The notes beneath the pieces are model-generated. The model searched no databases, was not told where the DNA came from, and saw only the letters and a program-made list of their open reading frames with translations. Both the position numbers and the translations under genes were made by a program. From a virus, in IMG/VR virus record IMGVR_UViG_3300042905_004373, positions 1-64,000 of that record: a stretch of DNA of 64,000 bases. The stretch is one strand, 5' to 3'. Below, in pieces: positions 6,873-25,433 of the stretch (its first letter is position 1; every line of letters starts with the position of its first letter).

Positions 6873-7697
6873 GTGAAAACATTTCAAGAGTTTCTTGAGG
6901 AAAGTGCCCTTGCAAGATTGGCACTTCGGGGTATAAGATCTGCATCAAGAGTTGCAAGAACTGCTGATGGTGGAAGAAGAGTTACATCAGCAGCAAGAGC
7001 AACAAGAAATGTAAGATCAAGAGTAGTAGAACCAAAAGGAATGCCCGAAACAGGTACAACAAGATACTTTGATCGTAAATTAGGTAATAGCGATCTTGCA
7101 GCATTTAAAAAAGCAAATTTTAGAACAAGTCGATCTGACGCTAGAGATTATGACAGAACCAGACCACGGTCTTACAGTTATAAATCAACACCATCAGGAG
7201 AACCCTCTTTTTATACAACAATTGTTTCAAAATATCCGAATCAAGCGGCATATGCACAGAGACAATTGCCAGATAAAAAGTCTTATGGTTTCAATGCAAG
7301 AACACAACAAAGTGGATTTAAGGTAACTCCATCAAGAGAAAGAGCATTCTTTGCAAGTCAGTTAAGAAAACAACTGGGAGGAACAAGAACTCCTAAACAA
7401 GTTGCAGATATTGAAATTGGAACAAAATCAGATTATTATAGAAAAAATGATCCGACAGATCTGATCGGAAGAGGTAAAGAATTTGTTCAAACACTAAAAG
7501 ATGTTCCACAAAGACTTGCAACATCGAATGTGAAACCAGGTGATAAAGTCACTGCTCATCCAGCAGCAGTGATGCCAGGTGAAACAAATAAAGTAATGGG
7601 AAGAAAAAAAAGAGCAGATCTTTATAAGAGGATTGCAGGAAATAGGATGACAAAAATGAATCCTGTGACTCAGGCACTTGTAGGTACAATGCAATGA
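6873..7697 (+). CDS. internal-protein-like basic protein, paralog B (MKTFQEFLEES, GTG start)
   Basis: CTS-like N-terminus; shares 52-nt identical stretch and C-terminal similarity with 7694..8476. Confidence 0.7.
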   Translation: MKTFQEFLEESALARLALRGIRSASRVARTADGGRRVTSAARATRNVRSRVVEPKGMPETGTTRYFDRKLGNSDLAAFKKANFRTSRSDARDYDRTRPRSYSYKSTPSGEPSFYTTIVSKYPNQAAYAQRQLPDKKSYGFNARTQQSGFKVTPSRERAFFASQLRKQLGGTRTPKQVADIEIGTKSDYYRKNDPTDLIGRGKEFVQTLKDVPQRLATSNVKPGDKVTAHPAAVMPGETNKVMGRKKRADLYKRIAGNRMTKMNPVTQALVGTMQ

Positions 7698-8476
7698 AGA
7701 CATTTCAAGAGTTTAACGAAAGTGCTGCTATTGCAAGAGGTGCCTTAAAATTACTTAGATCAGCATCCAGAGCAGGTAAAGTCGCAAGAACCGCTGATGG
7801 TGGAAGAAGAGTTACATCAGCAGCAAGAGCAACAAGAAATGTAAAATCAAAAGCAGTTCCTCCTCGTGGTCCAGGTGAAAATACATGGGATAGACTAGAT
7901 GCTAGAAGAAGTATTTCAGATAAAGTAGTACTAAAAAAGGCAGGATTCAAGAGACGTGATCCTAACGAACAACCTAAAGAAACTGAAGCATGGGCATCAC
8001 CTCATCATTCCACTATGGTCCGCACTTATAAAAATCAAAGTGATTACGTTATAGATCAAGTACCACATAAAAATCTTGCATCTGGAAGAGCAACAAGAAA
8101 AGTAAGATCAACTGCATCTATAGTAAGACACGCAAAAGCATTAAGAAAGCAGTTAGGTGGTGATCGTACATCAAAACCAGTACATGATGTTGCAATTCTA
8201 AGTGATAGATCTTATGCTAAAAATGACCCAGAAGATTTGATCTCAAGAGGTAGAAGTTTCAGGAAAGAAGTTGGTGCCGTACCTAGTGCATTATGGAAAG
8301 CAGGTGCAAACCCAGGTGATAAAGTTACGTCAGAACCTTCAGGAATTATGAGTGGTGAAGACATAATAAAAGGAAAAGAAAAAAGAGACAAGATCTATAC
8401 GAAGGTATTGAAAGCAAAGATGAATCCAAAGACTGGTAAGACGATGGGTACATATAGAGATATGGATAATAACTAA
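7694..8476 (+). CDS. internal-protein-like basic protein, paralog C (MKTFQEFNES)
   Basis: ATGA overlap with paralog B; clear paralogy (ARTADGGRRVTSAARATRNV...; NDP.DLI.RG..F). Confidence 0.7.
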   Translation: MKTFQEFNESAAIARGALKLLRSASRAGKVARTADGGRRVTSAARATRNVKSKAVPPRGPGENTWDRLDARRSISDKVVLKKAGFKRRDPNEQPKETEAWASPHHSTMVRTYKNQSDYVIDQVPHKNLASGRATRKVRSTASIVRHAKALRKQLGGDRTSKPVHDVAILSDRSYAKNDPEDLISRGRSFRKEVGAVPSALWKAGANPGDKVTSEPSGIMSGEDIIKGKEKRDKIYTKVLKAKMNPKTGKTMGTYRDMDNN

Positions 8477-8632: not shown

Positions 8633-8640
8633 GTAGGACA

Positions 8641-8695
8641 CCTGAACAACTGGCACACAGGGCACTTCACAGGTGCTCTTTCTTGTCTTATAATA
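8641..8695 (+). promoter_or_regulatory. Class-A cassette (CCTGAACAACTGGCACACAGGGCAC ... TTTCTTGTCTTATAAT)
   Basis: Consensus copy. Confidence 0.5.
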
Positions 8696-8717: not shown

Positions 8718-9449
8718 ATGTTCCAATTCGCAGAAGTCGGTGGTGCAGTCCGAGACAAGTTTCTTGGTGTAGATTCCAAGGATGTTGATTTCGTTGCAAT
8801 CCCGATAAATCCAAAGATGTTCGCAAATGCCGATGAGGCATTTGCTACCTTAGTGAATGTTTTGAAAGTTGATGGATTTGAGGTTTTTCTAGAAACTCCT
8901 GAGTTCTTCACTGTTCGGGCACAAGTTCCAACGTGGCATCCTGTGAGGAAAAGAACTACTGTTGCTGACTTTGTTCTGGCACGGAAAGATGGTCCGAGTA
9001 GTGATGGTCGTCGTCCTGATTTTGTTCTTCCCGGAACCCTGATGGATGACCTGCAACGACGGGATTTTACCGTGAATGCGATGGCAATTCTGGATGGGGA
9101 ACTGGTGGATCCTTTCGGTGGTCGTGAAGACCTTGAGAATAATCTTCTTCGGTTTGTGGGTAATCCTACTGACCGAATTGCAGAAGATGGTCTGAGGGTT
9201 ATGAGGGCACTGCGGTTTCACATTACCAAAGGGTTTAATATTGAAGGACAAACTTGGGATGCAGTCAATAGCGATTTTGCTGCTGAAATGCTGAACAAGG
9301 TTTCGGTTGAACGTATCCGTGAGGAACTTGAAAAAATGTTTCTTGCAAATACCGTTGCTACTATGGAGACCCTCAGTGATGTGAGGCGTAAAATGAAAAA
9401 TGCCATCTTCCGTGATGGTCTGCGTCTGATGCCCACTCTGAAAAAGTAA
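8718..9449 (+). CDS. tRNA nucleotidyltransferase / poly(A) polymerase family head-domain protein (CCA-adding-enzyme-like, 243 aa)
   Basis: GGAVRD (GGxVRD) and RRDFTVNA (RRDFTxNA) class-II nucleotidyltransferase motifs; DPFGG..DL; RALRF. Confidence 0.75.
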   Translation: MFQFAEVGGAVRDKFLGVDSKDVDFVAIPINPKMFANADEAFATLVNVLKVDGFEVFLETPEFFTVRAQVPTWHPVRKRTTVADFVLARKDGPSSDGRRPDFVLPGTLMDDLQRRDFTVNAMAILDGELVDPFGGREDLENNLLRFVGNPTDRIAEDGLRVMRALRFHITKGFNIEGQTWDAVNSDFAAEMLNKVSVERIREELEKMFLANTVATMETLSDVRRKMKNAIFRDGLRLMPTLKK

Positions 9450-11283: not shown

Positions 11284-11508
11284 ATGTCTTTTACTGCTGA
11301 AGGAACTATTGAAATTGATTTGGCAGAGTTCTTCACTTGGATTTACCAAAACTACGCACCTGTAAATGGTGTTGAGTATCAGTATGGTGTTCCTCGTGTG
11401 AATAAGAGTAATCAAACACTTGAGATTGATTTTGCGATGGCAACTGATTGTAATCCAAAGGATTGGATTGAACAACCTGATGCAGTCAATCAGTGGAAGG
11501 ACACTTGA
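11284..11508 (+). CDS. hypothetical protein (74 aa)
   Basis: ATG 8 nt after AAAGGAGG. Confidence 0.55.
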   Translation: MSFTAEGTIEIDLAEFFTWIYQNYAPVNGVEYQYGVPRVNKSNQTLEIDFAMATDCNPKDWIEQPDAVNQWKDT

Positions 11509-11560
11509 CGAACTGGCACACTGAGGCACTCCAGACTCCTCTGGATGCCCTATAATAGTC
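11501..11560 (+). promoter_or_regulatory. Class-A cassette (near-identical copy of 10633..10687)
   Basis: CTTGACGAACTGGCACACTGAGGCACTCCAGACTCCTCTGGATGCCCTATAAT. Confidence 0.5.
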
Positions 11561-12382: not shown

Positions 12383-12598
12383 ATGACTGAAAAAGACACC
12401 TATGCATACTGCGAACACCTTATTCAAAAAGAAATTGATGAGGTATTTGTGACTGTTAGTAGTTGGAGCAGAGAATGTGCCGACCATAATGAAGAGTTTA
12501 TTTCTTTCAAACAAAGAAAAAGTGAAGAACTCAAAAACCTCTACAAACACTTGGAGAACATTCAAAAACTGAAAACCTCTTATCTTACTGGACGATAA
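12383..12598 (+). CDS. hypothetical protein (71 aa)
   Basis: in frame with track ORF 12338. Confidence 0.45.
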   Translation: MTEKDTYAYCEHLIQKEIDEVFVTVSSWSRECADHNEEFISFKQRKSEELKNLYKHLENIQKLKTSYLTGR

Positions 12599-12774
12599 TG
12601 ACTAACCAAATTACCAAAGAACAACTAATCCGAGTTAAAATTCTTCCTCAACTTGAAAGTGTTTCTGATTTTTTGCTTGATTGTCACGACAATTCCACAG
12701 CAAAGCATTTTGGTAGGAAACTGGATAAAATTACTGAAGAACTCATCACTATTTTGAACGACGAGGACACCTGA
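12598..12774 (+). CDS. hypothetical protein (58 aa) ending ...DEDT*
   Basis: ATAATG overlap; stop codon lies inside cassette GACACCTGAACAACTGGCAC. Confidence 0.4.
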   Translation: MTNQITKEQLIRVKILPQLESVSDFLLDCHDNSTAKHFGRKLDKITEELITILNDEDT

Positions 12775-12824
12775 ACAACTGGCACACAGGGCACTTCACA
12801 GGGGAACCAGATGCCTTATAATTG
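12766..12824 (+). promoter_or_regulatory. Class-A cassette
   Basis: GACACCTGAACAACTGGCACACAGGGCAC...GATGCCTTATAAT. Confidence 0.5.
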
Positions 12825-12845
12825 ATTCATAAGCAACCCAACCAA

Positions 12846-13430
12846 ATGAACATCAACGGATACGAAATCAAACCTGGTGCTAACCTTGTGGGTGCTTACC
12901 TTGGGTGTGCTTACCTTGTGGGTGCTAACCTTAGCGGTGCTCACCTTGTGAGTGCTAACCTTGTGAGTGCTAACCTTAGGGGTACTAACCTTAGTGGTGC
13001 CGACCTTGAGGGTGCCGACCTTAGTTGTGCCGCCCTTAGGGGTGCCGACCTTTATGGTGCCATCCTTAGGGGTGCCTACCTTAGGGATGCCAACCTTAGT
13101 TGTGCCGCCCTTAGGGGTGCTGACCTTAGGGGTGCTGACCTTAGGGGTGCTTACCTTGAGGGTGCCATCCTTAGGGGTGCTGACCTTTATCGTGCCGACC
13201 TTAGGGGTGCCGACCTTAGGGGTGCCTACCTTTATCGTGCCGACCTTAGGTATGCCAACCTTGAGGGTGCCAACCTTGAGGGTGCAAATGTAACAGAAAC
13301 CATTCTTGATGGGAAAGAAGAACCTTCTCAAGATACCACTTCACTTTCTGAAAAAGTTAAAGAACTTGAGGAAGAAAACAAGAAACTTAAGGATACACTT
13401 AAGGCAATTCTGGCACTTCTGGACACCTGA
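12846..13430 (+). CDS. pentapeptide-repeat protein (28 tandem A[D/N]LxG repeats) with C-terminal coiled coil
   Basis: GANLV GAYLG ... GADLR GAYLE ...; 15-bp DNA periodicity; C-terminal KVKELEEENKKLKDTLKAILALL; start at ATG 12846 rather than track TTG 12822. Confidence 0.8.
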   Translation: MNINGYEIKPGANLVGAYLGCAYLVGANLSGAHLVSANLVSANLRGTNLSGADLEGADLSCAALRGADLYGAILRGAYLRDANLSCAALRGADLRGADLRGAYLEGAILRGADLYRADLRGADLRGAYLYRADLRYANLEGANLEGANVTETILDGKEEPSQDTTSLSEKVKELEEENKKLKDTLKAILALLDT

Positions 13431-13480
13431 ACAACTGGCACACAGGGCACTTCACAGGGGAACCAGATGCCTTATAATAC
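13424..13480 (+). promoter_or_regulatory. Class-A cassette (exact copy of 12766 box)
   Basis: GACACCTGAACAACTGGCACACAGGGCACTTCACAGGGGAACCAGATGCCTTATAAT. Confidence 0.5.
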
Positions 13481-13504: not shown

Positions 13505-13642
13505 ATGAACATGAGACCCAAACGGTACTTCTTCTTCGATGAGTATGGTGCATGGTACAAGGTGATTGCAAGTTGTCTTGCTGCTGCTACTGCACAACTT
13601 CCTGCCGATTTTGAGTACGATTACTACGAGGTTCACAAATGA
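13505..13642 (+). CDS. hypothetical protein (45 aa)
   Basis: ATG after conserved leader; ATGA overlap with next gene. Confidence 0.35.
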   Translation: MNMRPKRYFFFDEYGAWYKVIASCLAAATAQLPADFEYDYYEVHK

Positions 13643-14514: not shown

Positions 14515-14781
14515 ATGAATTACGAAACTGAAATCATAGATGGACACAAAGCAGTTGTCCGTCATTTCTTCAAACATCATGAAATCCAAGTTGGTTCTCG
14601 TTGGGCACGGGCAGATGGTTCCAAGGGTTATGTGACCGTTGAGGGTTTTAATTCTTATGGTTCTACTGACCCTTGGTATGAGGTTGTTTATTCTTGGGAA
14701 GAGAATGGTGTGAAGAAAACCTGGCAAAAAGAAACTTTTGCTTTCCAGTGCCGTTATTGCTTGATTGTTGAGGACACCTGA
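14515..14781 (+). CDS. hypothetical protein ending ...VEDT*
   Basis: 88 aa; stop within cassette. Confidence 0.55.
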   Translation: MNYETEIIDGHKAVVRHFFKHHEIQVGSRWARADGSKGYVTVEGFNSYGSTDPWYEVVYSWEENGVKKTWQKETFAFQCRYCLIVEDT

Positions 14782-14832
14782 TTAACTGGCACAGCAGGGC
14801 ACTTCAGACTCCTCTGGATGCCCTACAATAGT
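14774..14832 (+). promoter_or_regulatory. Class-A cassette variant (CCTGATTAACTGGCACAGCAGGGCAC ... CCCTACAAT)
   Basis: TACAAT -10 variant. Confidence 0.45.
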
Positions 14833-17604: not shown

Positions 17605-18072
17605 ATGGGTTACTACGTCAGCATTGAAGAAAGCACCTTTATGATTCCTGCTGAGAATCTGGATGCTGCTTATAAGGCAATGTGTGAACTAAACTATACT
17701 GTTCCTAACAGTCAGAAACGAGGTGGATCTTATCCCGATAAGGATAAGGCACCTGAGTATGGTCCTCATAAGTCCTGCTGGTTCTCATGGATGGATTGGA
17801 ACTATCATGAGACTTGTAAGGATGCTGAAAAGATTCTTCAGGAAGTTGGTTTCTACACTTCCATTGGTGAGAATGGAAATCTTCACATTGATGGGTATGG
17901 TAATAAGACTGGGCAGGAAGATTTGTTTCTGAAGTCTATCTGTTCACTTGCCAAAGGTTACATTGTGTGGAAAGGTGGAGAAGGTGAGTATTGGGGTGAG
18001 ACTTATGGTGGAGATAGGGTAATCGTAAAGGAACGATCCCGCCAGGATTTCAGTGATCTTGTGACACTCTGA
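17605..18072 (+). CDS. hypothetical protein (155 aa)
   Basis: ATG after CACATCATC leader; in frame with track ORF 17533. Confidence 0.55.
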   Translation: MGYYVSIEESTFMIPAENLDAAYKAMCELNYTVPNSQKRGGSYPDKDKAPEYGPHKSCWFSWMDWNYHETCKDAEKILQEVGFYTSIGENGNLHIDGYGNKTGQEDLFLKSICSLAKGYIVWKGGEGEYWGETYGGDRVIVKERSRQDFSDLVTL

Positions 18073-18144
18073 CAACTGGCACCAGAGGCACCTAAGACCC
18101 GCTCTGGGTGCCTTAAGATTAACAAGTCAACCACCGACACTCCA
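18062..18144 (+). promoter_or_regulatory. Class-B cassette
   Basis: GTGACACTCTGACAACTGGCACC...CTTAAGATTAACAAGTCAACC. Confidence 0.4.
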
Positions 18145-18393
18145 ATGAAACTCGTCAAGGTTCATTCTTCTAAGAGCATCAACTTCACCAAAAATGCATC
18201 ATTCTGGTGTGAGATGACTAATCTGTATAAGAAATGTTACCCAAAGCATTCTTTTAAGAGAATGGCAGATCATCTTGGTCTGACTGAGACTAATGCTCGC
18301 CGCTACTATTATGGTATTCATCATAAGAACTTTGGATACCTTGGACAAGGTGGTTATACTCAAATGCGTCAAGGTGCCTGTGTGACACTCTGA
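18145..18393 (+). CDS. hypothetical small basic protein (possible HTH)
   Basis: 82 aa; ...MADHLGLTETNARRYYYG... Confidence 0.5.
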   Translation: MKLVKVHSSKSINFTKNASFWCEMTNLYKKCYPKHSFKRMADHLGLTETNARRYYYGIHHKNFGYLGQGGYTQMRQGACVTL

Positions 18394-18469
18394 CAACTGG
18401 CACAGGGGGCACCTAGGATCGCCTACAGTGCCCCTATACTTAAGAAGTCAACCACACACACCCGACACC
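18391..18469 (+). promoter_or_regulatory. Class-B cassette (copy of 17531)
   Basis: CTGGCACAGGGGGCACCTAGGATCGCCTACAGTGCCCCTATACTTAAGAAGTCAACC. Confidence 0.45.
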
Positions 18470-18601
18470 ATGGAAGACACCCTCTGGATCGAAATTGCTG
18501 ATGCTCCCGGCGAAATCTTCGACATTCCTGAACTGCAGGATGAAGAAGACAATGATGAGCACACTTGGAACGCTTTCCTCAACTCTAACTGGGATTTCTG
18601 A
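18470..18601 (+). CDS. acidic mini-protein (43 aa)
   Basis: MEDTLWIEIADAPGEIFDIPELQDEEDNDEH... Confidence 0.35.
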   Translation: MEDTLWIEIADAPGEIFDIPELQDEEDNDEHTWNAFLNSNWDF

Positions 18602-18603
18602 TA

Positions 18604-18711
18604 ATGAACCAAGATCTTCTCATCATCCACTATAAGGATGGCACATCCCAAACTCTGAAGATGTATCATCTTCTGGCAATTCTTCCTTTGTTTGTTTTTC
18701 TGATCCGATGA
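18604..18711 (+). CDS. 35-aa membrane peptide
   Basis: ...MYHLLAILPLFVFLIR; ATGA-coupled chain. Confidence 0.3.
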   Translation: MNQDLLIIHYKDGTSQTLKMYHLLAILPLFVFLIR

Positions 18712-18836
18712 CACCTGACACTTACAACTTTACTGGCGACTCTGTGACAGTTCTCGGACTGGTCGGAGTGATCTCCACTGGCATCATTCTGGTGCTATGC
18801 TTCACTCGTTACTTCAATTCTCCCCTGAGAAAATGA
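18708..18836 (+). CDS. 42-aa membrane peptide
   Basis: ...VLGLVGVISTGIILVLCF...; ATGA overlap both ends. Confidence 0.3.
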   Translation: MTPDTYNFTGDSVTVLGLVGVISTGIILVLCFTRYFNSPLRK

Positions 18837-19048
18837 CACTCACTCCCGAACAGATTTCTGAGATTGTTGAAAAGTATTGTGATCGTGTCGTAGATGAAAT
18901 GGATACGAAAACAATGGAGCAGATGGTTTATGAACTGCTAGTTGATTCTTTCGCTCATGAATCTGAGAATGACATGGAATCTCTTATCACCTCAATCTAT
19001 GGTGAGGAATACTATCAAGAACTGGTGGAGAGTGTGACAGTTCAGTAA
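18833..19048 (+). CDS. hypothetical acidic protein (71 aa)
   Basis: in frame with track ORF 18797. Confidence 0.5.
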   Translation: MTLTPEQISEIVEKYCDRVVDEMDTKTMEQMVYELLVDSFAHESENDMESLITSIYGEEYYQELVESVTVQ

Positions 19049-19117
19049 GTGGCACACGGGGGCTTGAAATGCCCCCCATTTGCTGCCATACTACATTTGT
19101 TGAGAGGGAGACCCCTA
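19049..19117 (+). promoter_or_regulatory. Class-B cassette (GTGGCACACGGGGGCTTGAAATGCCCCCC ... GCCATACT)
   Basis: hairpin GGGGGC..GCCCCCC. Confidence 0.4.
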
Positions 19118-19363
19118 ATGACAATGACCGTTCGCCAAATGATTGAATGGATGTCCACCTTTGAGGATCAGGATGCCATCGTTGAAGTAGTTGTCCACAG
19201 TGAGGGTCGTGGTTATTACGACCGAGGTGGAAATGCTGATACTATGGAGTTCAATCCTGAGCAGCACGTAGATTACACCGATTTGCGTGGCAATCCGTTT
19301 GTGGACGAATCCTCTCCTTACCACAATCGTAGATCTGTGGTGTTGGGTGCGGTGAACGGTTAA
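19118..19363 (+). CDS. hypothetical protein (81 aa)
   Basis: in frame with track ORF 19049. Confidence 0.5.
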   Translation: MTMTVRQMIEWMSTFEDQDAIVEVVVHSEGRGYYDRGGNADTMEFNPEQHVDYTDLRGNPFVDESSPYHNRRSVVLGAVNG

Positions 19364-19504
19364 CCGTACCTGAACTGTGACAGTTCAGTAAGTGGCACAC
19401 AAGGGTTGACACCACTGCCAACCCGTGCCATACTAGATTCATCAGCGGGGGTGAAGCATCCCGCTCAAAACACTTCACTCAAACCTTACTTTTTTGTTTT
19501 TATT

Positions 19505-19717
19505 ATGTTCAAGTTCCAATCCAGCGCCATCGAAAACATCAGCGATGTGCAAGATGAGCAAGTGACCATCACCTTCATGGGTGGTCGTAACTATACCTAT
19601 AAGGTTGCTGAACCCAGCAACTTTGTGTCTGATCTGAATACTGTGATTGCCAAAGAGGAATCTGTTGGTAGTTTCATCAACTCTGCTATTCGTAGCGAGC
19701 GACTGCTGTCGATCTGA
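19505..19717 (+). CDS. hypothetical protein (70 aa)
   Basis: MFKFQSSAIENISDVQDEQV... Confidence 0.45.
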   Translation: MFKFQSSAIENISDVQDEQVTITFMGGRNYTYKVAEPSNFVSDLNTVIAKEESVGSFINSAIRSERLLSI

Positions 19718-19772
19718 TAGCATCTAGAGGGAGATTCTTCTCCCTCTTTCATTCTCTTTCTTGGAGTAATTC

Positions 19773-19919
19773 ATGAACAAAGAAATTATGACAACTCTTC
19801 TGGACCAAGGCACTGATGGGAACAGCATCCTTTCGATTCTTGATGCACTGTGTTCTGGGATGGACAGTGGTGAATCTAGTCAAGATAATGTCCCCACACT
19901 AGACGAGATTGAGTTCTAA
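19773..19919 (+). CDS. hypothetical acidic mini-protein (48 aa)
   Basis: MNKEIMTTLLDQGTDGNSILSILDAL... Confidence 0.3.
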   Translation: MNKEIMTTLLDQGTDGNSILSILDALCSGMDSGESSQDNVPTLDEIEF

Positions 19920-20049
19920 AACTCGACGAGGTGTGCCACATCATCTAGTGGCACATTCAATCTCGACGAGTCATGAGACATCAACTAGATTATGTACATC
20001 TCGACGAGCACATCATGGAAACCGCATTCGTTATTCCAATCTCGAAGAA
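19919..20049. repeat. four copies of (A)ATCTCGACGAG-type repeat plus GTGCCAC-N9-GTGGCAC palindrome
   Basis: copies at 19919, 19959, 19998, 20038; palindrome 19933..19954. Confidence 0.55.
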
Positions 20050-20203
20050 AGCAAAGAATCGCTTTGCAAACATGATGCAATCAAACGATGAATGTATCAT
20101 CGAGCAACACAAAGGAAACAAACTGTTTCTTGCATCTATGAATCAGAAATACTTTTTTTGGGTTTCACTTGACAATGATCCAGACTGGATGGTAGACTTT
20201 TGA
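20015..20203 (+). CDS. hypothetical protein (62 aa)
   Basis: METAFVIPISKKAKNRF...; upstream part of track ORF 19973 overlaps repeats. Confidence 0.35.
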   Translation: METAFVIPISKKAKNRFANMMQSNDECIIEQHKGNKLFLASMNQKYFFWVSLDNDPDWMVDF

Positions 20204-20281
20204 TACACGGGGAATGAGATGCGCCCCATCCTTAAGAAAAGACACTCAATGCGTAGAGAACAGATAATCATAGCATACATG

Positions 20282-20314
20282 ATAGGTGAAAGTGGATCTT
20301 GAGGATCAGGGTGG
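20282..20314 (+). terminator. intrinsic terminator-like hairpin AGGATCAGG-gtggtg-CCTGATCCT + TTTTTCTTTTC
   Basis: perfect 9-bp stem followed by T-run. Confidence 0.55.
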
Positions 20315-20471
20315 TGCCTGATCCTTTTTCTTTTCTTTATCTTATTATTTTTTGACAGGTTCCGTGGCGATGTATTGTTCAGTAGAGATACCCTTCTCCC
20401 GTTGGTGCTGGTTGTCCTCTTAAGATACTGCCAGACTGCCCACAAAACCCTGATGCTGTGCCAGTTCGATC

Positions 20472-20560
20472 AGTGGCACAATGGTGGTTGATCGGGTCGG
20501 TTCTGGCATGGCATCATTCACTCAACGGCGCACCAATGACGCCGCCTCACTTCTAAAATC
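20472..20560 (+). promoter_or_regulatory. Class-B cassette (CAGTGGCACAATGG ...)
   Basis: TGGCACA box upstream of ATG 20561. Confidence 0.35.
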
Positions 20561-21040
20561 ATGAGCAACGCCACTGTTCAAGTTGTTATCAACGGCAACC
20601 AAGTTCAAGGTAAGATTGATGAGATCGCCAAGATTCTGAGCGTTGTAAGTGACACTCTGGCGCCAACAGTTGCTCCTGTTGTTTCTAACAATGTGGAAGA
20701 ACTTGCACTCAAGTTCGTTGACTTTTTTGCCACTGAACTTGATAGTCACATTAGTGGTGGAAAGTTGTTTGTTCATGAACTCAACCGACTGCGCCACAAT
20801 GGTAACACTTACCGTGCCATGATTCGCGTTTATCATGATTTGGTTAATAAAGGTGCGGAAGGATGGGCAAAGCGCCGCCAACTGTTGCTAACTGCCAGCG
20901 CAATCTGGCGTTATACTTTCCGGGGTTCCGAAAAGTCTAAACTTCGCTATCAGATTGAGGCAGTTATTGAATGTGACGATTGTGGGCAGTTTGCTACTGC
21001 AATGGTGAATCGCATGAAGAAAGAGAAACTCTGGGTGTGA
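20561..21040 (+). CDS. hypothetical protein
   Basis: 159 aa. Confidence 0.6.
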   Translation: MSNATVQVVINGNQVQGKIDEIAKILSVVSDTLAPTVAPVVSNNVEELALKFVDFFATELDSHISGGKLFVHELNRLRHNGNTYRAMIRVYHDLVNKGAEGWAKRRQLLLTASAIWRYTFRGSEKSKLRYQIEAVIECDDCGQFATAMVNRMKKEKLWV

Positions 21041-21046
21041 CAATCC

Positions 21047-21132
21047 GATAACTGGCACAAGGGGGGCAGCGATGCCTCCCATCCTGCCCGCTGATGCTGT
21101 AGGATAACTGCAGTTCACACCACACCGCCACC
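21047..21132 (+). promoter_or_regulatory. Class-B cassette (AACTGGCACAAGGGGGGCAGCGATGCCTCCC ... CTGTAGGATAACTGCAGTTCACACCACACC)
   Basis: leader shared with 22406..22443. Confidence 0.45.
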
Positions 21133-21867
21133 ATGCTGAACTTCACCAAGGGTAACGCCAAACTGGGCAAGCAAACTCTGATCTTTAACCTGCCAGCAGG
21201 TAAGACTTGCCCCGGTGCAATGTATTGCAAATCGTTCGTTGTTGTTGATAACGGCGAGCGTCACATTCAAGATGGCGAGCATACTATTTTCCGATGCTTT
21301 GCTGCATCCAGTGAGGTGCAATACGATGCAGCATTCAACAATCGCGCCAACAATCTGCGCCTGATTGTTGATGCTCTGAAGGATGGATCTGCAGCAGATC
21401 TTATCAATGAGGGCATTCAAGAACACCGCACAAAAAATACCAAACTGGTGCGGATTCATGAGAGCGGAGACTTTTTCTCTGGTGCATATTTGGATGCCTG
21501 GATTGAAGTTGCACAGCGCAATCCTGATCTGAAATTCTACTGCTACTCTAAGAGTCTGCAGTTGTTTCTTAACTTTAAGATGCCTGCTAACTTCTACTTC
21601 ACTGCCTCTTATGGTGGCAAATGGGATAGTCTGATTGATGCAGGATTGTTCACTCGTTATGCTAAAGTCTTCATGACCGAAGGTGATGCTAACGCTGCAG
21701 GTCTTGAAGTAGATCATGACGACTCTCACTGTTTCGGTGAGAAACCGTTTGCTCTGTTGGTGCATGGAACTCAACCGAAAGGTTCACTCTGGGGCAAGGC
21801 AATTCGCGCCCGTCGTTCTAATCAACAGTTCAGCGGTTACAGTAAGAAACTGCCTGTGACAGTCTGA
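21133..21867 (+). CDS. conserved-looking hypothetical protein with Cys/His motifs (GKTCPGAMYC ... RIHESGDFF ... HDDSHC)
   Basis: 244 aa; possible metal-binding enzyme. Confidence 0.6.
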   Translation: MLNFTKGNAKLGKQTLIFNLPAGKTCPGAMYCKSFVVVDNGERHIQDGEHTIFRCFAASSEVQYDAAFNNRANNLRLIVDALKDGSAADLINEGIQEHRTKNTKLVRIHESGDFFSGAYLDAWIEVAQRNPDLKFYCYSKSLQLFLNFKMPANFYFTASYGGKWDSLIDAGLFTRYAKVFMTEGDANAAGLEVDHDDSHCFGEKPFALLVHGTQPKGSLWGKAIRARRSNQQFSGYSKKLPVTV

Positions 21868-21947
21868 CCACTGTCCACCACGGGGCGCTCCGGCGCCCCA
21901 TCCTGCCATCCGATCCTGTAGACTTACAGAGTCAACCACACCGCACC
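21868..21947 (+). promoter_or_regulatory. Class-B-like cassette with GGGGCGC-tccg-GCGCCCC hairpin, CATCCTGCC and CTGTAGACTTACAGAGTCAACCACACC leader
   Basis: no TGGCACA box here. Confidence 0.35.
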
Positions 21948-22190
21948 ATGATCCCCGATCCCACCCAGGCAACCGCCATCCTCAACCGCTGCGACGCCTT
22001 CACCGTTGCCGGTGCTACTCTCCCGGTTTGGGAGCGTATCCTTAACGATCTCACAATCCCCACCGACCTTTATGATAAGGTTGAGGATCTCATTGAGATC
22101 CTGGAATACATCGAAGGTTGGCAACCTTCCGATGCTGACATGATCGCCGCGAACAGTTGCGGTACAGCATGGCATGACGGTTGCCGCTGA
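21948..22190 (+). CDS. hypothetical protein
   Basis: 80 aa. Confidence 0.5.
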   Translation: MIPDPTQATAILNRCDAFTVAGATLPVWERILNDLTIPTDLYDKVEDLIEILEYIEGWQPSDADMIAANSCGTAWHDGCR

Positions 22191-22365
22191 TTGATTATAC
22201 TTAAGGGGGCACAAGTTGCCTCCTTTTTTTATACTTTTTGCGCCATTATTTTATGGCAGGTTCGGTGGCGATAGTTGTTCAACCGGCGACCCTGCCGGTG
22301 TTGGTGCTGATTGTCTCCATAGTCTACAGGCACCACAGACCCATAAGACCGCCATGGTGGACAGT

Positions 22366-22443
22366 TCCACAAGTGGCACAACCCCCCATAGACGGATCCG
22401 ATCCCTGTGCTGTAGGATAACTGCAGTTCACCACACCACTCCG
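22366..22443 (+). promoter_or_regulatory. Class-B cassette (CACAAGTGGCACAACC ... GCTGTAGGATAACTGCAGTTCACCACACC)
   Basis: 34-bp exact repeat with 22789..22824. Confidence 0.45.
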
Positions 22444-22698
22444 ATGAACTTCTACAGTTTCTCCTCCCTGAACTTCTTTGATTCCTGTGGTGCCCGCCTG
22501 GCACGACATACCTTTGCGAATGGTTGGGTGATCAGTGTTGCAGCAGGTTCGAAGGATTCTGGAATCTACGGTGACATCGAGCACAATACCTTTGAGGTCG
22601 GGATTATCCGTCCCAATGGTAACATGCTGGAGGATGTTATCAGTTGGCAGACTCCAGAAGAGATCACTACCATAATGGGTGTGATTAAAATGCTATAA
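22444..22698 (+). CDS. hypothetical protein (84 aa)
   Basis: ATG after CACCACACCACTCCG leader; track ORF 22216 extends upstream through cassette (spurious). Confidence 0.5.
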   Translation: MNFYSFSSLNFFDSCGARLARHTFANGWVISVAAGSKDSGIYGDIEHNTFEVGIIRPNGNMLEDVISWQTPEEITTIMGVIKML

Positions 22699-22703
22699 GA
22701 ATC

Positions 22704-22729
22704 GGGAGCATCTTTGCTCCCTTTTTTTA
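22704..22729 (+). terminator. hairpin GGGAGCA-tctt-TGCTCCC + T7
   Basis: stem-loop followed by TTTTTTT; part of 65-bp block duplicated at 23525. Confidence 0.55.
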
Positions 22730-22805
22730 TACCTAACCCCACCAAAAATAGGTTCTACCTTCATCCTAGCACGGCACCCGCCTTCTAATCCGCCATGGTG
22801 GACAG

Positions 22806-22881
22806 TTCCACAAGTGGCACAACCTGATGGCACTGCGCCCCGTCTGCCCCCATACTGGTATCAGTTCACCACACCACTCCG
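22806..22881 (+). promoter_or_regulatory. Class-B cassette (AAGTGGCACAACC ... CCCCATACTGGTATCAGTTCACCACACC)
   Basis: recurrent. Confidence 0.45.
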
Positions 22882-23133
22882 ATGAACTTCTCTGCTCTCA
22901 CCCGCACCATGGTTCGCAGCATCCTCATCCAGCAGGGACCCCAAACCTGCTCCGACATCGTTCGGGGCATGGGACTGGATCCCCGCCGCCATAAGGGCAC
23001 TGTTCACGCTATCATGGTGGACATGGAGCGTGACGGCATCCTGAGCGCCACCATGAAAGGCAAGCGGCGCGATCTCTGGAGCATCAGCACCATCCGCAAG
23101 CGTGACAGGATCCTTGCTGCCCTGATCGGTTGA
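22882..23133 (+). CDS. small basic protein, possible winged-helix DNA-binding regulator
   Basis: 83 aa; ...TCSDIVRGMGLDPRRHKGTVHAIMVDMERDGIL... Confidence 0.5.
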   Translation: MNFSALTRTMVRSILIQQGPQTCSDIVRGMGLDPRRHKGTVHAIMVDMERDGILSATMKGKRRDLWSISTIRKRDRILAALIG

Positions 23134-23216
23134 ACCCCTACGGGGCGCAGAGCGCCCCTTCTACCATGCTCAACGCTCTAACCTGCTCCCGCTCCCCTAA
23201 ATTCCACCGTGCCACC

Positions 23217-23333
23217 ATGCTGCGCCTTCTGATCGCTGCTCTGCTGCTCTACTGGTTCTGGGAACCAATCCGCCCCATCCGCAATGTGACAGGTGAAGCA
23301 CTGTCCACTGCTGCTGAAATGATCCGCCGCTGA
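23217..23333 (+). CDS. 38-aa hydrophobic peptide
   Basis: MLRLLIAALLLYWFWEPIRPI... Confidence 0.3.
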   Translation: MLRLLIAALLLYWFWEPIRPIRNVTGEALSTAAEMIRR

Positions 23334-23368
23334 CCCTGTAGACTTCTCTCAGTTCACACCACTGAACC

Positions 23369-23503
23369 ATGACCTACGCTTTCACTGACGATCTCCAGGT
23401 TGAAGAGTACATCCCCACTGAGGATGATTGGGCATCCTATTATGAGGACGATCAGGCACTTGAAGAGTATTCTCTGGAGTGTGCATTTGGTCCTGAAGAA
23501 TGA
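23369..23503 (+). CDS. acidic mini-protein (44 aa)
   Basis: MTYAFTDDLQVEEYIPTEDDW...; after CAGTTCACACCACTGAACC leader. Confidence 0.35.
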   Translation: MTYAFTDDLQVEEYIPTEDDWASYYEDDQALEEYSLECAFGPEE

Positions 23504-23691
23504 CACAAACTGGGGGGCAATCGCCTCCCTTTTTTTATACCTAACCCCACCAAAAATAGGTTCTACCTTCATCCTAGCACGGCACCCGCACCCCTTGTCA
23601 ATCCCCTGACCCATTAGCATTGCTGATCGTTCAACCCCTTGACTCTGGTGCCGTTTGGGGCAATACTGGTATCAGTTCACCACATTACACA

Positions 23692-24042
23692 ATGACTAAA
23701 CCGACAGAAATTCATCCTGCAATTGCTGCAAATCTTGGATGGGATATTGATGCTGCCTCAAATGATAATTTGGTTACTGTAGTACGCCATCGCATCATTT
23801 TGGAAGAGGTAGTGATGACCAGGGAAGAATTTAATACGATGAATGAAAATGTAAAGAATGAAGAATCTTGTTGGAATGAAATTGAATGGCAAGATGCACA
23901 GTGGGATGATTATTGTGAAGAGCGTACAACCTATACTGCATTTCCCGGAGATGTAACATCATTCACTGATGATTGCGTTGCATTCTTATATCCCGAAGCA
24001 GAATGGGTGGAATGCTTTGAAACTGTGAAATGTGCCAATTGA
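23692..24042 (+). CDS. hypothetical acidic protein (116 aa)
   Basis: in frame with track ORF 23620; ATG after CAGTTCACCACATTACACA leader. Confidence 0.5.
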   Translation: MTKPTEIHPAIAANLGWDIDAASNDNLVTVVRHRIILEEVVMTREEFNTMNENVKNEESCWNEIEWQDAQWDDYCEERTTYTAFPGDVTSFTDDCVAFLYPEAEWVECFETVKCAN

Positions 24043-24044
24043 GG

Positions 24045-24116
24045 CACTGGCACAAGGGGATCGGCAACGGTCCCCACCCATCCTGTAGAATTCTCTCAGT
24101 TCACACCACACCACCC
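24045..24116 (+). promoter_or_regulatory. Class-B cassette (GGCACTGGCACAAGGGGATCGGCAACGGTCCCCACCCATCCTGTAG ... CAGTTCACACCACACC)
   Basis: recurrent. Confidence 0.45.
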
Positions 24117-24239
24117 GTGACTCTCTCACCTGCCACCTCCCTGCAGACTCGCCAACTGGTCTGGGTCCGCAATGGCGTTAAGATTCACTCAGCACCAGCA
24201 GCAACCTGGGCGGCACTGGGGCGCAACGGTCGCCTCTGA
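24117..24239 (+). CDS. possible 40-aa ORF with GTG start
   Basis: leader ends ...CACCCGTG; weak. Confidence 0.25.
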   Translation: MTLSPATSLQTRQLVWVRNGVKIHSAPAATWAALGRNGRL

Positions 24240-24293
24240 TCTGATACAATACAGGGGAGGCACAATCCTCCCCACATTCTTCACCCTTTCATC

Positions 24294-24482
24294 ATGGAAA
24301 CTATTCTCACCCCCGAAGAAATCACCGAACTGAATACTACCGGAAAGGTGACTCTTACCGATGATCTTATGATTCGCATGAAGCAATTCTGCGATCTTGT
24401 TGATACCAAAATCACAGAATCTTATGAGGATTCTGATTGGTTTAATGATCCGAATTGTGTAATGTCAAGGCATCATTATTGA
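24294..24482 (+). CDS. hypothetical protein
   Basis: 62 aa. Confidence 0.45.
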   Translation: METILTPEEITELNTTGKVTLTDDLMIRMKQFCDLVDTKITESYEDSDWFNDPNCVMSRHHY

Positions 24483-24525
24483 ATCTCGTCGAGACGCGCA
24501 CACAAGTTCACATGATCTCGACGAG
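24482..24525. repeat. two copies (one inverted) of ATCTCGACGAG repeat
   Basis: AATCTCGTCGAG (24482) and GATCTCGACGAG (24514). Confidence 0.45.
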
Positions 24526-25094
24526 ATTACACACATTTCACACACATTCGCAACTAGATTCATGTTCATCATTCGTTATCAAACTCCTTACAATAATTGT
24601 GAATGGCGCACACAATCATTCACCACAATTCAAGAGGCAGAAAGAATGATTGCATTTTATAAGTCTTGTGGATCACCTGCAGAGTTAGTTAAATGAATGA
24701 AGAATGAAAGTATAAAGAATAGAGAATGAATCTTAAGTAGTTCTTTATTCTTTATACTTTTCCTGAGCATAAAGAACTAACTCAGGATTAAGTGTAGAAT
24801 GTTAGTCAGTGGTGTGGTTTAGTTTTCTACATTTAGTCCTGTCTTAGTTTTTTATACTTAGCACTGTTTGAGTTTAATTCATTTAGCACTGTTTGAGTTC
24901 TTTATACAAACTGCCTGACGCTGGTGCGATTCCAACCACGCCAACCGCCCATCCGTCAAGCGTTTGACCCATTAGCGTTGCTGATGAATGGGGTTGCCGT
25001 TTGGTATTGGTTGATACAGTCTGCTCGGGGCGCTGGCGGTTAATGTTGTTTCAACGGATCGAAAACGACCTTTCAACCGATCCGCCCCAGACCA

Positions 25095-25433
25095 ATGGCA
25101 AACTCCTACGATCTGCCCGCCGCCATCGTTTCGGATACGCTCGAAACCCTTATGGGGCATCTCGCAACTGCTGACGCTAAGTGTAAAGAGGCGGAGGCAG
25201 AATGCAAGCGTCTGCGTGATGAGATCGCTGGCATCATGATGGCCGCTGATGTAACCTCTGAGCGCACTTGCTGGGGGTTGGTATCACTAACCTCCCGCGA
25301 TAAAGTTACGTATTCTCCCGCGATTAAGGTTCTTGAGATTAACCTTAAGGCAGAAAAGGATAAAGAGGTTGCAACTGGAATCGCTAAAGTTGCAGAGGGT
25401 GATAAGTTTATCCGCGTAACTTGGGCGAAGTAA
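25095..25433 (+). CDS. hypothetical protein
   Basis: 112 aa. Confidence 0.55.
   Translation: MANSYDLPAAIVSDTLETLMGHLATADAKCKEAEAECKRLRDEIAGIMMAADVTSERTCWGLVSLTSRDKVTYSPAIKVLEINLKAEKDKEVATGIAKVAEGDKFIRVTWAK

What the first reader, a model, noticed from the sequence alone, without database searches (positions are those of the whole stretch)
12846..13430. Phage-encoded pentapeptide-repeat protein with dimerisation coiled coil: possible DNA mimic
There are 28 uninterrupted A(D/N)LxG pentapeptides, which predict roughly 7 turns of a right-handed quadrilateral beta-helix. A linker and an amphipathic coiled coil (KVKELEEENKKLKDTLKAILALL) follow. This resembles the dimeric Qnr/MfpA/AlbG proteins that mimic B-DNA and bind gyrase. 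In an early phage gene preceded by a strong cassette promoter, a DNA-mimic fold suggests either anti-restriction activity, like Ocr or ArdA, or manipulation of host topoisomerase. This fold is not among the known T4 early functions.
Basis: partly seen in the sequence, partly recalled or inferred. Interest (0 to 1): 0.72.

Follow-up and report, generated by a model that had tools for sequence, protein, structure and literature searches.

The report
Cyanophage pentapeptide-repeat protein with zipper tail
A small gene in a T4-like cyanophage really does encode a seven-turn pentapeptide-repeat beta-helix with a leucine-zipper tail, but nothing found here shows that it mimics DNA, and its relatives carry anywhere from 2 to about 32 repeats.

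Summary
Window 12846-13430 (+) encodes a 194-aa protein with a 10-residue N-cap, 27 regular 15-nt/5-aa units plus a cap unit, a low-confidence acidic linker and a 28-residue heptad helix with Asn at a core position. Pfam Pentapeptide scores E=4e-48, and AlphaFold gives a beta-helix (pLDDT 80.8).

The window is a T4-like cyanomyovirus, with TerL 91.6% identical to freshwater Synechococcus phage S-SRM01. The gene lies in a plastic region of small ORFs, each behind a PeSL-like promoter cassette. Two 100% identical 58-nt cassette copies flank it.

It belongs to a small family found only in viral or metagenomic contigs. The caps and tail are conserved (pN/pS 0.29), but the array runs from 2-3 to about 32 repeats. 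Some phages carry two paralogs.

The Qnr/MfpA analogy holds only at fold level:
- NCBIfam scores fall far below the cut-offs.
- There are no Qnr loops.
- The helix is a tethered zipper, not the short capping helix of the head-to-head dimers.
- Array length is not conserved.
- Net charge (-6) resembles QnrB1 and MfpA, so charge neither supports nor refutes DNA mimicry.

Function is unknown. My best guess is a dimeric protein-binding solenoid acting on a host factor. Phage pentapeptide-repeat proteins are already common annotations, so interest is modest.

The parts
12765..12822 (+). Upstream promoter cassette (PeSL-like). Its first bases, GAC ACC TGA, end the upstream ORF 12598-12774. The -35-like TTCACA is at 12795-12800 and the -10 TATAAT at 12817-12822.
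   Evidence: It is 100% identical over 58 nt to the copy at 13421-13478 (family D2). The promoter scan matches 11 of 12 positions. It is one of 20 cassettes in the window, all on the + strand.
12846..13430 (+). Coding sequence of the 194-aa pentapeptide-repeat protein, stop codon included.
   Evidence: ORF list. Pfam PF00805 E=4e-48. AlphaFold mean pLDDT 76.5 and 80.8. The non-repeat codons are under purifying selection across 12 family genes, pN/pS 0.29.
12846..12875 (+). N-terminal cap MNINGYEIKP (residues 1-10).
   Evidence: M1, N4, G5, Y6, E7, I8, K9 and P10 are invariant in the 12-sequence alignment and are also conserved in loci L001-L011.
12876..13295 (+). Repeat array of 27 units of 15 nt (GGT GCY RAC CTT NNG = G-A-x-L-x), followed by the cap unit GANVT. 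[quoted passage not shown]
   Evidence: TRF; unit table and per-position entropy; one beta-bridge every 5 residues in both models; Foldseek probability 1.0 to solved pentapeptide-repeat proteins.
12884..13132 (+). A 249-nt in-frame block (16.6 repeat units) that is present here but absent from the 111-aa allele of the closest relative, L001.
   Evidence: In the global DNA alignment of window against L001, the remaining 309 nt are 97.1% identical.
13296..13337 (+). C-cap and acidic linker ETILDGKEEPSQDT (residues 151-164).
   Evidence: pLDDT is below 50 at residues 153-164 and 156-163 in the two models. T152, I153, L154, K157, E159 and D163 are invariant in the family.
13338..13427 (+). Amphipathic heptad helix (residues 165-192) plus the final residues D-T. 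The a/d positions are L167, V171, L174, N178, L181, L185, I188 and L192, a leucine-zipper-like pattern.
   Evidence: DSSP assigns helix to 167-193 and 165-192. Heptad register. The same tail is fused to a Bro-N fragment in P0131.
13421..13478 (+). Downstream promoter cassette, overlapping the last codons and the stop of the gene. It drives the next ORF, 13505-13642.
   Evidence: Identical 58-nt copy. TTCACA-16 nt-TATAAT at 13451-13478.
12816..13331 (-). Antisense 'KVGT' ORF. It is a by-product of the periodicity and is not considered a gene.
   Evidence: It stays open only because none of the variable codons in the array is the complement of a stop codon. There are no cassettes on the - strand anywhere in the window.

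Best explanation
What is shown: this is a real protein-coding accessory gene of a T4-like cyanomyovirus. It sits in a plastic region of small genes, behind its own sigma-70-type promoter cassette. It encodes a cytoplasmic pentapeptide-repeat protein with no signal peptide. The protein is a beta-solenoid of about 7 coils (roughly 34 A long, estimated from a textbook rise of 4.8 A per coil, not measured on the model) with a conserved N-cap, tethered by a flexible acidic linker to a conserved heptad helix.

The gene belongs to a small family found only in viral or metagenomic contigs. Across that family the caps and tail are under purifying selection. The array itself expands, contracts and recombines in 15-nt steps. 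Nearly all variation falls on the outward-facing residues, while the inward-facing Ala and Leu stay fixed.

The whole gene is a cassette-bounded module. Its two identical 58-nt direct repeats are 656 nt apart, the arrangement that PeSL-mediated shuffling and mini-circle formation use in other T4-type phages.

What is inferred: the zipper makes a parallel homodimer (Asn at a core 'a' position). This would hold two solenoids side by side on flexible tethers rather than end to end. The solenoid faces act as a binding surface that titrates or blocks a host protein early in infection. The target is unknown. A DNA-handling enzyme such as gyrase is one candidate among several.
For: Gene and fold:
- establish the repeat, the Pfam match and the predicted beta-helix.
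- TerL is 91.6% identical to S-SRM01, with gp6, gp8, neck and sheath genes downstream.

Promoter and cassettes:
-. In L004 the gene is again flanked by two near-identical cassettes.
- PeSL precedent: PMC2839356 and PMC4122927.

Family:
- Members are listed.
- Caps and tail give pN/pS 0.29.
- Core residues: Ala 165/170 and Leu 168/170. The surface position i+1 has entropy 2.95 bits.
- A 249-nt in-frame indel separates the window gene from an allele that is otherwise 97% identical.
- The family is absent from 185,579 bacterial and archaeal species genomes and from isolated phages. Only about 10 clusters turn up among 1.84 billion representatives.

Other points:
- Zipper register.
- Two paralogs with different zipper types (N-type and L/Y-type) occur in L004 and L005.
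- Other pentapeptide-repeat proteins work as protein-binding surfaces, for example HetL, PipB2 and SopA/NleL. These turn up as structural or profile neighbours; their functions are from own knowledge.
Against: - No partner, phenotype or expression timing is known. 'Early' rests only on the promoter type.
- Alleles with 2-6 repeats cannot form even two coils. Either the solenoid is dispensable for the conserved function, or the short alleles are defective.
- Part of the length variation could be assembly error in short-read metagenomes. However, the longest exact internal repeat in the window array is only 28 nt.
- The frozen synonymous sites inside the array hint at a DNA-level constraint that this explanation does not account for.
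Confidence: 0.45

Rival explanations
1. Qnr/MfpA-type DNA (T-segment) mimic: the dimer binds host gyrase or topoisomerase IV and either protects it from a poison or modulates supercoiling for the phage.
For: - It has the same fold class as these proteins.
- Net charge is -6 and pI 4.9, close to QnrB1 (-6, pI 5.0) and MfpA (-5, pI 5.3).
- It carries a C-terminal helix that could dimerise.
- The window allele has 7 coils against about 8 in those proteins.
- From own knowledge, not tested here: T4-like cyanophages are generally reported to lack the T4 topoisomerase genes, so they would depend on host gyrase.
Against: - NCBIfam scores are 56.6 against 360 (MfpA) and 50.6 against 240 (Qnr).
- tblastn against 72,556 plasmids returned no qnr plasmid among the 40 listed rows or the ten commonest genera at E<=1e-5.
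- There are no Qnr loops A/B and no AlbG loop; the array is uninterrupted.
- The helix is 28 residues long behind a flexible linker, not the 11-12-residue capping helix that builds the rigid head-to-head rod.
- Family arrays run from 2-3 to about 32 units.
- The beta-helix part alone has net charge only -2, and its first two coils are uncharged with exposed Val.
Confidence: 0.15
2. Ocr/ArdA-like anti-restriction DNA mimic that blocks type I/III restriction enzymes or BREX.
For: It is an early-type phage gene with a rod-like fold and a mildly acidic pI.
Against: - The acidic fraction is 0.139 against a basic fraction of 0.108, far from the extreme acidity of Ocr or ArdA (own knowledge).
- The pentapeptide-repeat proteins McbG and QnrB did not relieve BREX when tested (PMC7261183).
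- There is no similarity to any PADLOC model.
- The variable array length argues against it, as above.
Confidence: 0.05
3. A passenger ORFan: the gene persists because the cassette system copies it around and the 15-nt repeat expands in frame. Selection acts only for foldability and non-toxicity, and the protein has no specific target.
For: - Repeat number varies widely, including 66-aa alleles seen on 23 contigs.
- There are no conserved neighbouring genes.
- S-SRM01 lacks the gene at the syntenic place.
- The family is rare.
- ORFan regions of this kind can be lost with a gain in fitness in S-PM2 (PMC4503421).
Against: - Caps and tail are under purifying selection (pN/pS 0.29) over a synonymous divergence of about 0.3.
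- Two paralogs are retained in three loci.
- The inward-facing residues are strictly conserved.
Confidence: 0.25
4. Not a protein-coding gene: a 15-nt DNA satellite (binding-site array or recombination hotspot) that happens to be open in three frames.
For: - Three frames are open across the array.
- Synonymous sites inside the units are frozen, with Leu CTT 240/241 and Gly GGT 172/176, unlike the rest of the same genes.
Against: - Only the A-x-L frame is joined in phase to the conserved N-cap, which has an ATG 24 nt after a -10 box, and to the conserved tail.
- pN/pS is 0.29 in the caps and tail.
- Variation is confined to the positions that are outward-facing in this frame.
- Pfam E=4e-48.
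Confidence: 0.03

Closest known systems
Uncharacterised phage pentapeptide-repeat proteins (for example Rheinheimera phage Barba gp043 'pentapeptide', Eggerthella phage PMBT5 ORF9, Listeria phage CKA15_017, Staphylococcus phage Twort ORF044)
   Same: They are small phage-encoded pentapeptide-repeat proteins among non-structural or early genes. In Barba gp043 the repeat units also use one uniform codon set.
   Different: None has the MxxNGYEIKP cap or the EEP-QDxTSLS-KVKELEEE zipper tail; the tail search against isolated phages found nothing. Barba gp043 ends in a different, non-repeat domain of about 70 residues. No function is established for any of them.
Topoisomerase-protecting pentapeptide-repeat proteins: MfpA, QnrB1, EfsQnr, AlbG, McbG
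   Same: The right-handed quadrilateral beta-helix, a similar monomer size for the window allele (7 coils against about 8), mildly negative net charge, and a helix at the C-terminus.
   Different: - Scores are far below the family cut-offs.
- There are no loops.
- The C-terminal element is a long tethered heptad helix instead of a short capping helix with flanking beta-strands.
- Repeat number is not conserved in the family.
- Gyrase binding is untested.
Consensus-type cyanobacterial pentapeptide-repeat proteins: Np275/Np276, HetL (All3740), Alr5209, Rfr23/Rfr32
   Same: They are the closest by sequence and fold. Examples are 2j8k (E 2.8e-9), 3du1, and 6omx at 39% identity. The repeats are near the Pfam consensus A(D/N)LxG. 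The host group, cyanobacteria, is the richest in such proteins (PMC8145042).
   Different: - The NCBIfam Alr5209 model is passed (136.9 against 125 bits) only by summing three overlapping repeat matches to profile positions 19-97.
- The caps and tail are unrelated.
- No member of the family was found in any bacterial genome, so recent capture from a host is not shown.
PeSL (promoter-early stem-loop) cassettes of T4-type phages (Arbiol et al. 2010; Comeau et al. 2014)
   Same: They are short conserved promoter/stem-loop cassettes between small variable ORFs in hyperplastic regions. Direct cassette repeats bracket single ORFan genes, and gene order is shuffled between relatives.
   Different: - The sequence is different: TGTG[A/C]CA-N9-10-TGGCACA, then a GC-rich stem, then TATAAT.
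- The stem lies between the upstream dyad and the -10 box.
- The two copies flanking this gene have a degraded stem (z 0.26) but a better -35.
- PeSLs were described in coliphages and vibriophages, and were reported to be sparse in cyanophage S-PM2 (PMC4503421).

Membership tests
Pentapeptide repeat protein (Pfam PF00805, Rfr fold) | Tandem A(D/N)LXX pentapeptides scoring above the Pfam gathering threshold | tested here: met
   160.9 bits against a cut-off of 20.2, E=4.1e-48. 27 regular units plus a cap unit.
Pentapeptide repeat protein (Pfam PF00805, Rfr fold) | [quoted passage not shown] | tested here: met
   This rests on prediction only. AlphaFold mean pLDDT is 76.5 and 80.8, with a beta-bridge every 5 residues. 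Foldseek gives probability 1.0 to 2j8k, 5dra (TM 0.64), 3du1 and 2bm4.
Topoisomerase-protecting PRPs (Qnr / MfpA / AlbG / McbG) | Sequence reaches the curated family model cut-off | tested here: not met
   NCBIfam MfpA 56.6 against 360 bits. Qnr family 50.6 against 240. All Qnr sub-family models score 33-45 against 425-500.
Topoisomerase-protecting PRPs (Qnr / MfpA / AlbG / McbG) | Short (11-12 residue) C-terminal helix that caps the beta-helix and forms a rigid head-to-head dimer | tested here: not met
   The helix here is 28 residues in heptad register, separated from the solenoid by residues with pLDDT below 50. The definition of the feature is from PMC8145042. The dimer itself could not be modelled.
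Topoisomerase-protecting PRPs (Qnr / MfpA / AlbG / McbG) | Conserved solenoid length of about 8-9 coils | tested here: not met
   The window allele has 7 coils. Family members have from 2-3 to about 32 repeats, which is under 1 to about 8 coils.
Topoisomerase-protecting PRPs (Qnr / MfpA / AlbG / McbG) | Loop insertions needed for quinolone or albicidin protection (Qnr loops A and B; AlbG loop) | tested here: not met
   The array is uninterrupted. MfpA also lacks loops, so this feature does not define the whole group.
Topoisomerase-protecting PRPs (Qnr / MfpA / AlbG / McbG) | DNA-like negative surface | tested here: inconclusive
   Net charge is -6 overall and -2 for the solenoid, against QnrB1 -6 and MfpA -5. 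No coordinates were available for an electrostatic map.
Topoisomerase-protecting PRPs (Qnr / MfpA / AlbG / McbG) | Binds gyrase or topoisomerase IV and alters poisoning or supercoiling | not testable with these tools
   This needs biochemistry or complex modelling.
Acidic DNA-mimic anti-restriction proteins (Ocr, ArdA) | Very high density of surface Asp/Glu arranged like DNA phosphates | tested here: not met
   The protein has 27 acidic against 21 basic residues in 194 aa. No Ocr or ArdA structure appeared among the 50 PDB fold matches listed.
PeSL cassette-bounded ORFan module | Sigma-70-like promoter directly upstream of the ORF | tested here: met
   TTCACA-16 nt-TATAAT, 11 of 12 matches, at 12795-12822, with the ATG 24 nt downstream. 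This is a consensus match only.
PeSL cassette-bounded ORFan module | Stem-loop terminator within the cassette | tested here: inconclusive
   Of the six copies folded, those at 450 (z -3.4) and 18383 (z -2.3) stand out from shuffles, and three others fold weakly (z -1.3 to -1.7). The two copies flanking this gene do not (z 0.26). They look like a hybrid of the 8636-type left half and the 11196-type right half.
PeSL cassette-bounded ORFan module | Direct cassette repeats flanking a gene that differs between close relatives, in a hyperplastic region | tested here: met
   The 58-nt copies at 12765 and 13421 are 100% identical. The gene is absent from S-SRM01. Its neighbours are shuffled in L001-L011. 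L004 shows the same flanking arrangement.

The most novel reading that the evidence does not exclude
The family is a phage 'adjustable solenoid'. It would be a zipper-dimerised pentapeptide-repeat protein whose length and surface are retuned by 15-nt slippage and by recombination between phages, keeping pace with a variable host target. That target could be a DNA-handling enzyme or defence protein recognised by DNA-like shape. The repeat array would then act as a contingency locus for host takeover or counter-defence in freshwater cyanomyoviruses, carried between genomes as a PeSL mini-circle.
Probability: 0.12. Interest if true: 0.7.

Novelty: new variant of a known kind. Interest (0 to 1): 0.35.

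Why it matters
No phage-encoded pentapeptide-repeat protein with a demonstrated function turned up in the literature searched here. They are nonetheless frequent: 471 of 50,697 phage records matched this one.

This family offers a clean natural series for asking what such proteins do. The caps and the dimerisation tail stay the same, while the arrays run from 2 to about 32 units, and some genomes carry two paralogs.

The flanking identical cassettes also extend PeSL-type modular shuffling to cyanomyoviruses, where it had been thought sparse. That bears on how these ecologically important phages acquire and test new genes.

If the gene did target host gyrase or a defence system, it would be a new class of phage takeover factor. 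Nothing found here shows that.

Tried and rejected
1. I first argued against DNA mimicry from the near-neutral charge of the solenoid. I dropped this as decisive after computing the real QnrB1 and MfpA sequences. These were verified as exact matches to PDB 2xtw and 2bm4, and they are only -6 and -5.
3. Megablast of the locus against isolated phages found nothing. The tail found nothing there by tblastn, nor in 185,579 species genomes.
4. tblastn against plasmids, meant to fetch qnr comparators, returned only generic pentapeptide-repeat genes in its listed rows.
5. PADLOC gave no hit. PHROGs gave only families of unknown function.
6. Neighbouring genes showed no conserved partner across 8 loci, so guilt by association gave nothing.
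7. I considered capture from the host. The closest structures are cyanobacterial, but the caps and tail have no bacterial counterpart, so capture is not supported.
8. I considered assembly collapse as the cause of the length variation. The longest exact internal repeat is 28 nt, so collapse is unlikely for this array. It is not excluded for the short metagenomic alleles.
9. Literature searches for a characterised phage pentapeptide-repeat protein found only annotation-level mentions.
Full report
**1. The observation**

Window 12846-13430 on the + strand is an open reading frame of 194 codons. Tandem Repeats Finder reports a 15-nt period with 27.3 copies at 12876-13285. Pfam PF00805 (Pentapeptide) matches at E=4.1e-48, with 160.9 bits against a cut-off of 20.2.

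Parsed unit by unit, the array has 27 regular units of the form GGT GCY RAC CTT NNG, which encode G-A-x-L-x, followed by a cap unit GANVT. Ala is present in 26 of 27 units and Leu in all 27. The residue before Leu is D or N in only 17 units, and otherwise Y, A, I or H.

The start is the ATG at 12846. The TTG at 12822 lies inside the -10 box, and all relatives begin M-x-x-N-G-Y-E-I-K-P.

The antisense ORF 12816-13331 and a third open frame are side effects of the periodicity.

**2. Predicted structure**

Two AlphaFold runs were made, one on the single sequence and one on a 12-sequence family alignment. Mean pLDDT was 76.5 and 80.8.
- Both give a beta-bridge every five residues from about residue 4 to 152.
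- Both give a low-confidence stretch, at 153-164 or 156-163.
- Both give a helix at 165-192.

Foldseek against the PDB returns only pentapeptide-repeat proteins. The best are Np275/276, the designed 'beta1' solenoids and HetL. QnrB1, MfpA and AlbG rank lower. phmmer against PDB sequences gives the same order.

The helix has L167, V171, L174, N178, L181, L185, I188 and L192 at a/d positions. An Asn at a core 'a' position usually specifies a parallel dimer. That rule comes from established knowledge of GCN4-type zippers and was not tested here.

**3. Where the gene sits**

The window comes from a T4-like cyanomyovirus. Genes for gp6, gp8, the neck protein, large terminase and tail sheath lie at 29-63 kb. 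The terminase is 91.6% identical to that of Synechococcus phage S-SRM01, a freshwater isolate of the Kyanoviridae from a Singapore reservoir.

The first 28 kb is an array of small + strand ORFs with higher G+C content. Twenty copies of a cassette of about 58-60 nt lie between 448 and 24250, all on the + strand. Each is followed 22-30 nt later by an ORF. The cassette has three parts:
- an imperfect dyad, TGTG[A/C]CA-N9-10-TGGCACA;
- a G+C-rich stem-loop, which stands out from shuffled controls in two of the six copies folded and is weak in three others;
- a TATAAT-like box.

The cassette's first bases supply the last codons and the stop of the upstream ORF. This is why several ORFs here end in D-T-stop.

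The gene of interest is bracketed by two 100% identical 58-nt copies at 12765-12822 and 13421-13478. Each carries TTCACA-16 nt-TATAAT, an 11 of 12 match. In these two copies the stem is degraded (z 0.26). The sequence reads like a hybrid of the 8636-type and 11196-type cassettes.

The same cassette occurs in S-SRM01 and in every metagenomic relative. In L004 the homologous gene is again flanked by two near-identical copies.

This is the arrangement described as PeSLs in T4-type coliphages and vibriophages. There, recombination between cassettes shuffles ORFan genes and can release mini-circles (PMC2839356, PMC4122927). PeSLs had been reported as sparse in cyanophage S-PM2 (PMC4503421).

**4. 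The family**

A whole-protein search returns thousands of generic pentapeptide-repeat proteins. It also returns a few close relatives with the same ends: P0002 (111 aa, 95% identical over the shared part), P0029, P0047, P0019 and P0059.

Searches with the tail alone add the following:
- 8 IMG/VR loci;
- 11 more proteins;
- about 10 clusters among 1.84 billion representatives.

The tail finds nothing in isolated phages and nothing in 185,579 bacterial and archaeal species genomes. S-SRM01 lacks the gene at the corresponding place.

All members share four elements:
- the N-cap M[KN][VI]NGYEIKP;
- the C-cap GANV-x-x-TIL;
- an acidic linker, EEP(S)QD(D/T)TSLS;
- the helix start KVKELEEE(N/L)KK.

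Across 12 genes these non-repeat codons give pS 0.29 and pN 0.085, a ratio of 0.29. The protein is therefore under purifying selection.

The number of repeats, by contrast, runs from 2-3 to about 32:

| Member | Length | Repeats |
|---|---|---|
| P0125 (seen on 23 contigs) | 66 aa | 2-3 |
| P0121, P0122, P0123 | 89 aa | about 6 |
| P0002, P0029, P0047 | 109-111 aa | about 10 |
| L005, L008, L003 | 111-127 aa | 12-14 |
| L011, L006, L009 | 166-185 aa | 21-25 |
| L004 and the window gene | 193-194 aa | 27 |
| L004 second copy | 220 aa | about 32 |

Relative to L001, the window gene differs by one in-frame 249-nt block, and the other 309 nt are 97.1% identical. L004, L005 and L009 each carry two paralogs. 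In L004 and L005 these have different zipper types.

One protein, P0131, joins a Bro-N fragment to the same zipper tail. The tail therefore behaves as a portable dimerisation module next to the cassette.

Gene neighbours are not conserved.

**5. How the array evolves**

Over 170 units from nine genes, the inward-facing residues are fixed (Ala 165/170, Leu 168/170). Variation sits at the outward-facing positions. The i+1 position has entropy 2.95 bits, with R, E, V, K, Y and others. This is what a folded solenoid with a free or diversifying surface predicts.

An unexplained point is that synonymous sites inside the units are frozen across all 12 genes examined.

| Residue | Inside the repeats | Caps and tails of the same genes |
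|---|---|---|
| Leu | CTT 240/241 | CTT 44/86 |
| Gly | GGT 172/176 | GGA 14/25 |
| Glu | GAG 57/58 | GAA 87/111 |
| Lys | AAG 22/22 | AAA 80/122 |

The repeat codons also differ from the phage's own general usage. Concerted evolution together with exchange of arrays between phages may explain this. So may a DNA-level constraint. I could not decide between them.

**6.

The fold, the linker, the helix and the promoter are confirmed. The specific likeness to Qnr/MfpA/AlbG is not.
- NCBIfam gives MfpA 56.6 bits against 360, and Qnr 50.6 against 240.
- The array has no loops.
- The gyrase-protecting proteins have about 8 coils and an 11-12-residue helix that caps the solenoid and builds a rigid head-to-head rod (PMC8145042). 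Here a long zipper hangs on a flexible tether. That would put the two solenoids side by side rather than end to end.
- The length of the solenoid is not conserved in the family.

Charge does not discriminate. I verified the QnrB1 and MfpA sequences against the PDB and found net charges of -6 and -5. The figure here is -6 overall and -2 for the solenoid.

An Ocr/ArdA-type mimic is unlikely. The protein has 27 acidic against 21 basic residues. The pentapeptide-repeat proteins McbG and QnrB did not relieve BREX when tested (PMC7261183).

**7. Most likely mechanism**

Shown: this is a real, selected, cassette-borne accessory gene with a sigma-70-type promoter, encoding a solenoid plus a zipper.

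Inferred: the protein is a parallel homodimer whose solenoid faces bind a host protein early in infection. The array length and surface are retuned by slippage and recombination. I put this at about 0.45. The rivals are:

| Rival reading | Probability |
|---|---|
| Gyrase-type DNA mimic | 0.15 |
| Passenger ORFan with no specific target | 0.25 |
| Anti-restriction DNA mimic | 0.05 |
| Not a gene | 0.03 |

**8. Novelty and interest**

Phage pentapeptide-repeat proteins are already common as annotations:
- 471 of 50,697 phage records matched this protein;
- 32 BFVD models matched at E<=0.001;
- 1.4% of Pfam pentapeptide-repeat sequences are viral.

The gyrase-inhibitor guess has already been made for others, for example Listeria phage CKA15_017.

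What is new here is the sub-family architecture of conserved caps plus a tethered zipper, the extreme repeat-number range, and the PeSL-type bracketing in a cyanomyovirus. I rate this as a new variant of a known kind, with interest 0.35.

Noticed in passing
window 448-24250 (20 sites, e.g. 448-507, 1692-1750, 8634-8694, 11497-11556, 14770-14829, 18381-18440, 19932-19991): A PeSL-like composite cassette occurs 20 times, only on the + strand. It consists of the dyad TGTG[A/C]CA-N9-10-TGGCACA (perfect at 1692 and 19932), a G+C-rich stem-loop and a TATAAT-like box, and an ORF starts 22-30 nt downstream. The cassette's 5' end supplies the stop codon of the upstream ORF. The dyad could be a binding site for a dimeric regulator or a second RNA hairpin. 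The cassette is also present in S-SRM01 (L012) and in L001-L011 except L010. PeSLs were previously described in coliphage and vibriophage T4-likes.
   Followed up: partly
repeat arrays of window 12876-13280 and of L001, L003-L006, L008, L009, L011: Synonymous sites inside the 15-nt unit are frozen across 12 genes (Leu CTT 240/241, Gly GGT 172/176, Glu GAG 57/58). The caps and tails of the same genes use mixed codons, with pS about 0.3. The variable codon almost always ends in G. This is unexplained.
   Followed up: partly
L004 5332-5994, L005 5940-6257, L009 1612-2247: Three related phage contigs carry a second paralog of the same family within 2 kb of the first. In L004 and L005 the two copies have different zipper variants (EEENKKLK and EEELKKYK), which might keep the two homodimers apart.
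   Followed up: partly
P0131 (locus L017 288-512): A 74-aa protein joins a fragment of a Bro-N domain (PF02498) to the same zipper tail, ELEEENKKLKDTLKAILALLDT. The tail next to the cassette therefore appears to be exchanged between unrelated genes.
   Followed up: no
window 18000-26000: G+C content is 45-51% here, against 27-31% in the structural module at 28-56 kb. The region contains 100% identical duplicated segments (22349/22790, 22424/22862, 22717/23525) and a 25-nt x 3 tandem repeat at 24819-24893. It may be recently acquired or duplicated DNA.
   Followed up: no
window 31013-42721 and 44372-51676: Two giant ORFs of 3902 aa and 2434 aa lie in the baseplate module between the gp6-like and neck genes. 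Their only Pfam matches are a YHYH domain (residues 1218-1318) and DUF4815.
   Followed up: partly
window 8718-9449: This ORF has a poly(A) polymerase / CCA-adding nucleotidyltransferase head domain (PF01743 E=8e-18, plus PF12627). No tRNA gene is present in the 64-kb window.
   Followed up: no
window 6873-7697 and 7694-8476; also 9516-9574/9857-9915 and 9810-9851/10107-10148: There are adjacent paralogous ORFs of 274 and 260 aa with 92-94% identical stretches. Nearby are short duplicated segments that are 98-100% identical, pointing to recent tandem duplications in the plastic region.
   Followed up: no
window 21133-21867: This ORF matches Pfam GP88 (PF17338, E=2e-43). An antisense ORF of similar length at 21115-21774 is probably spurious.
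   Followed up: no
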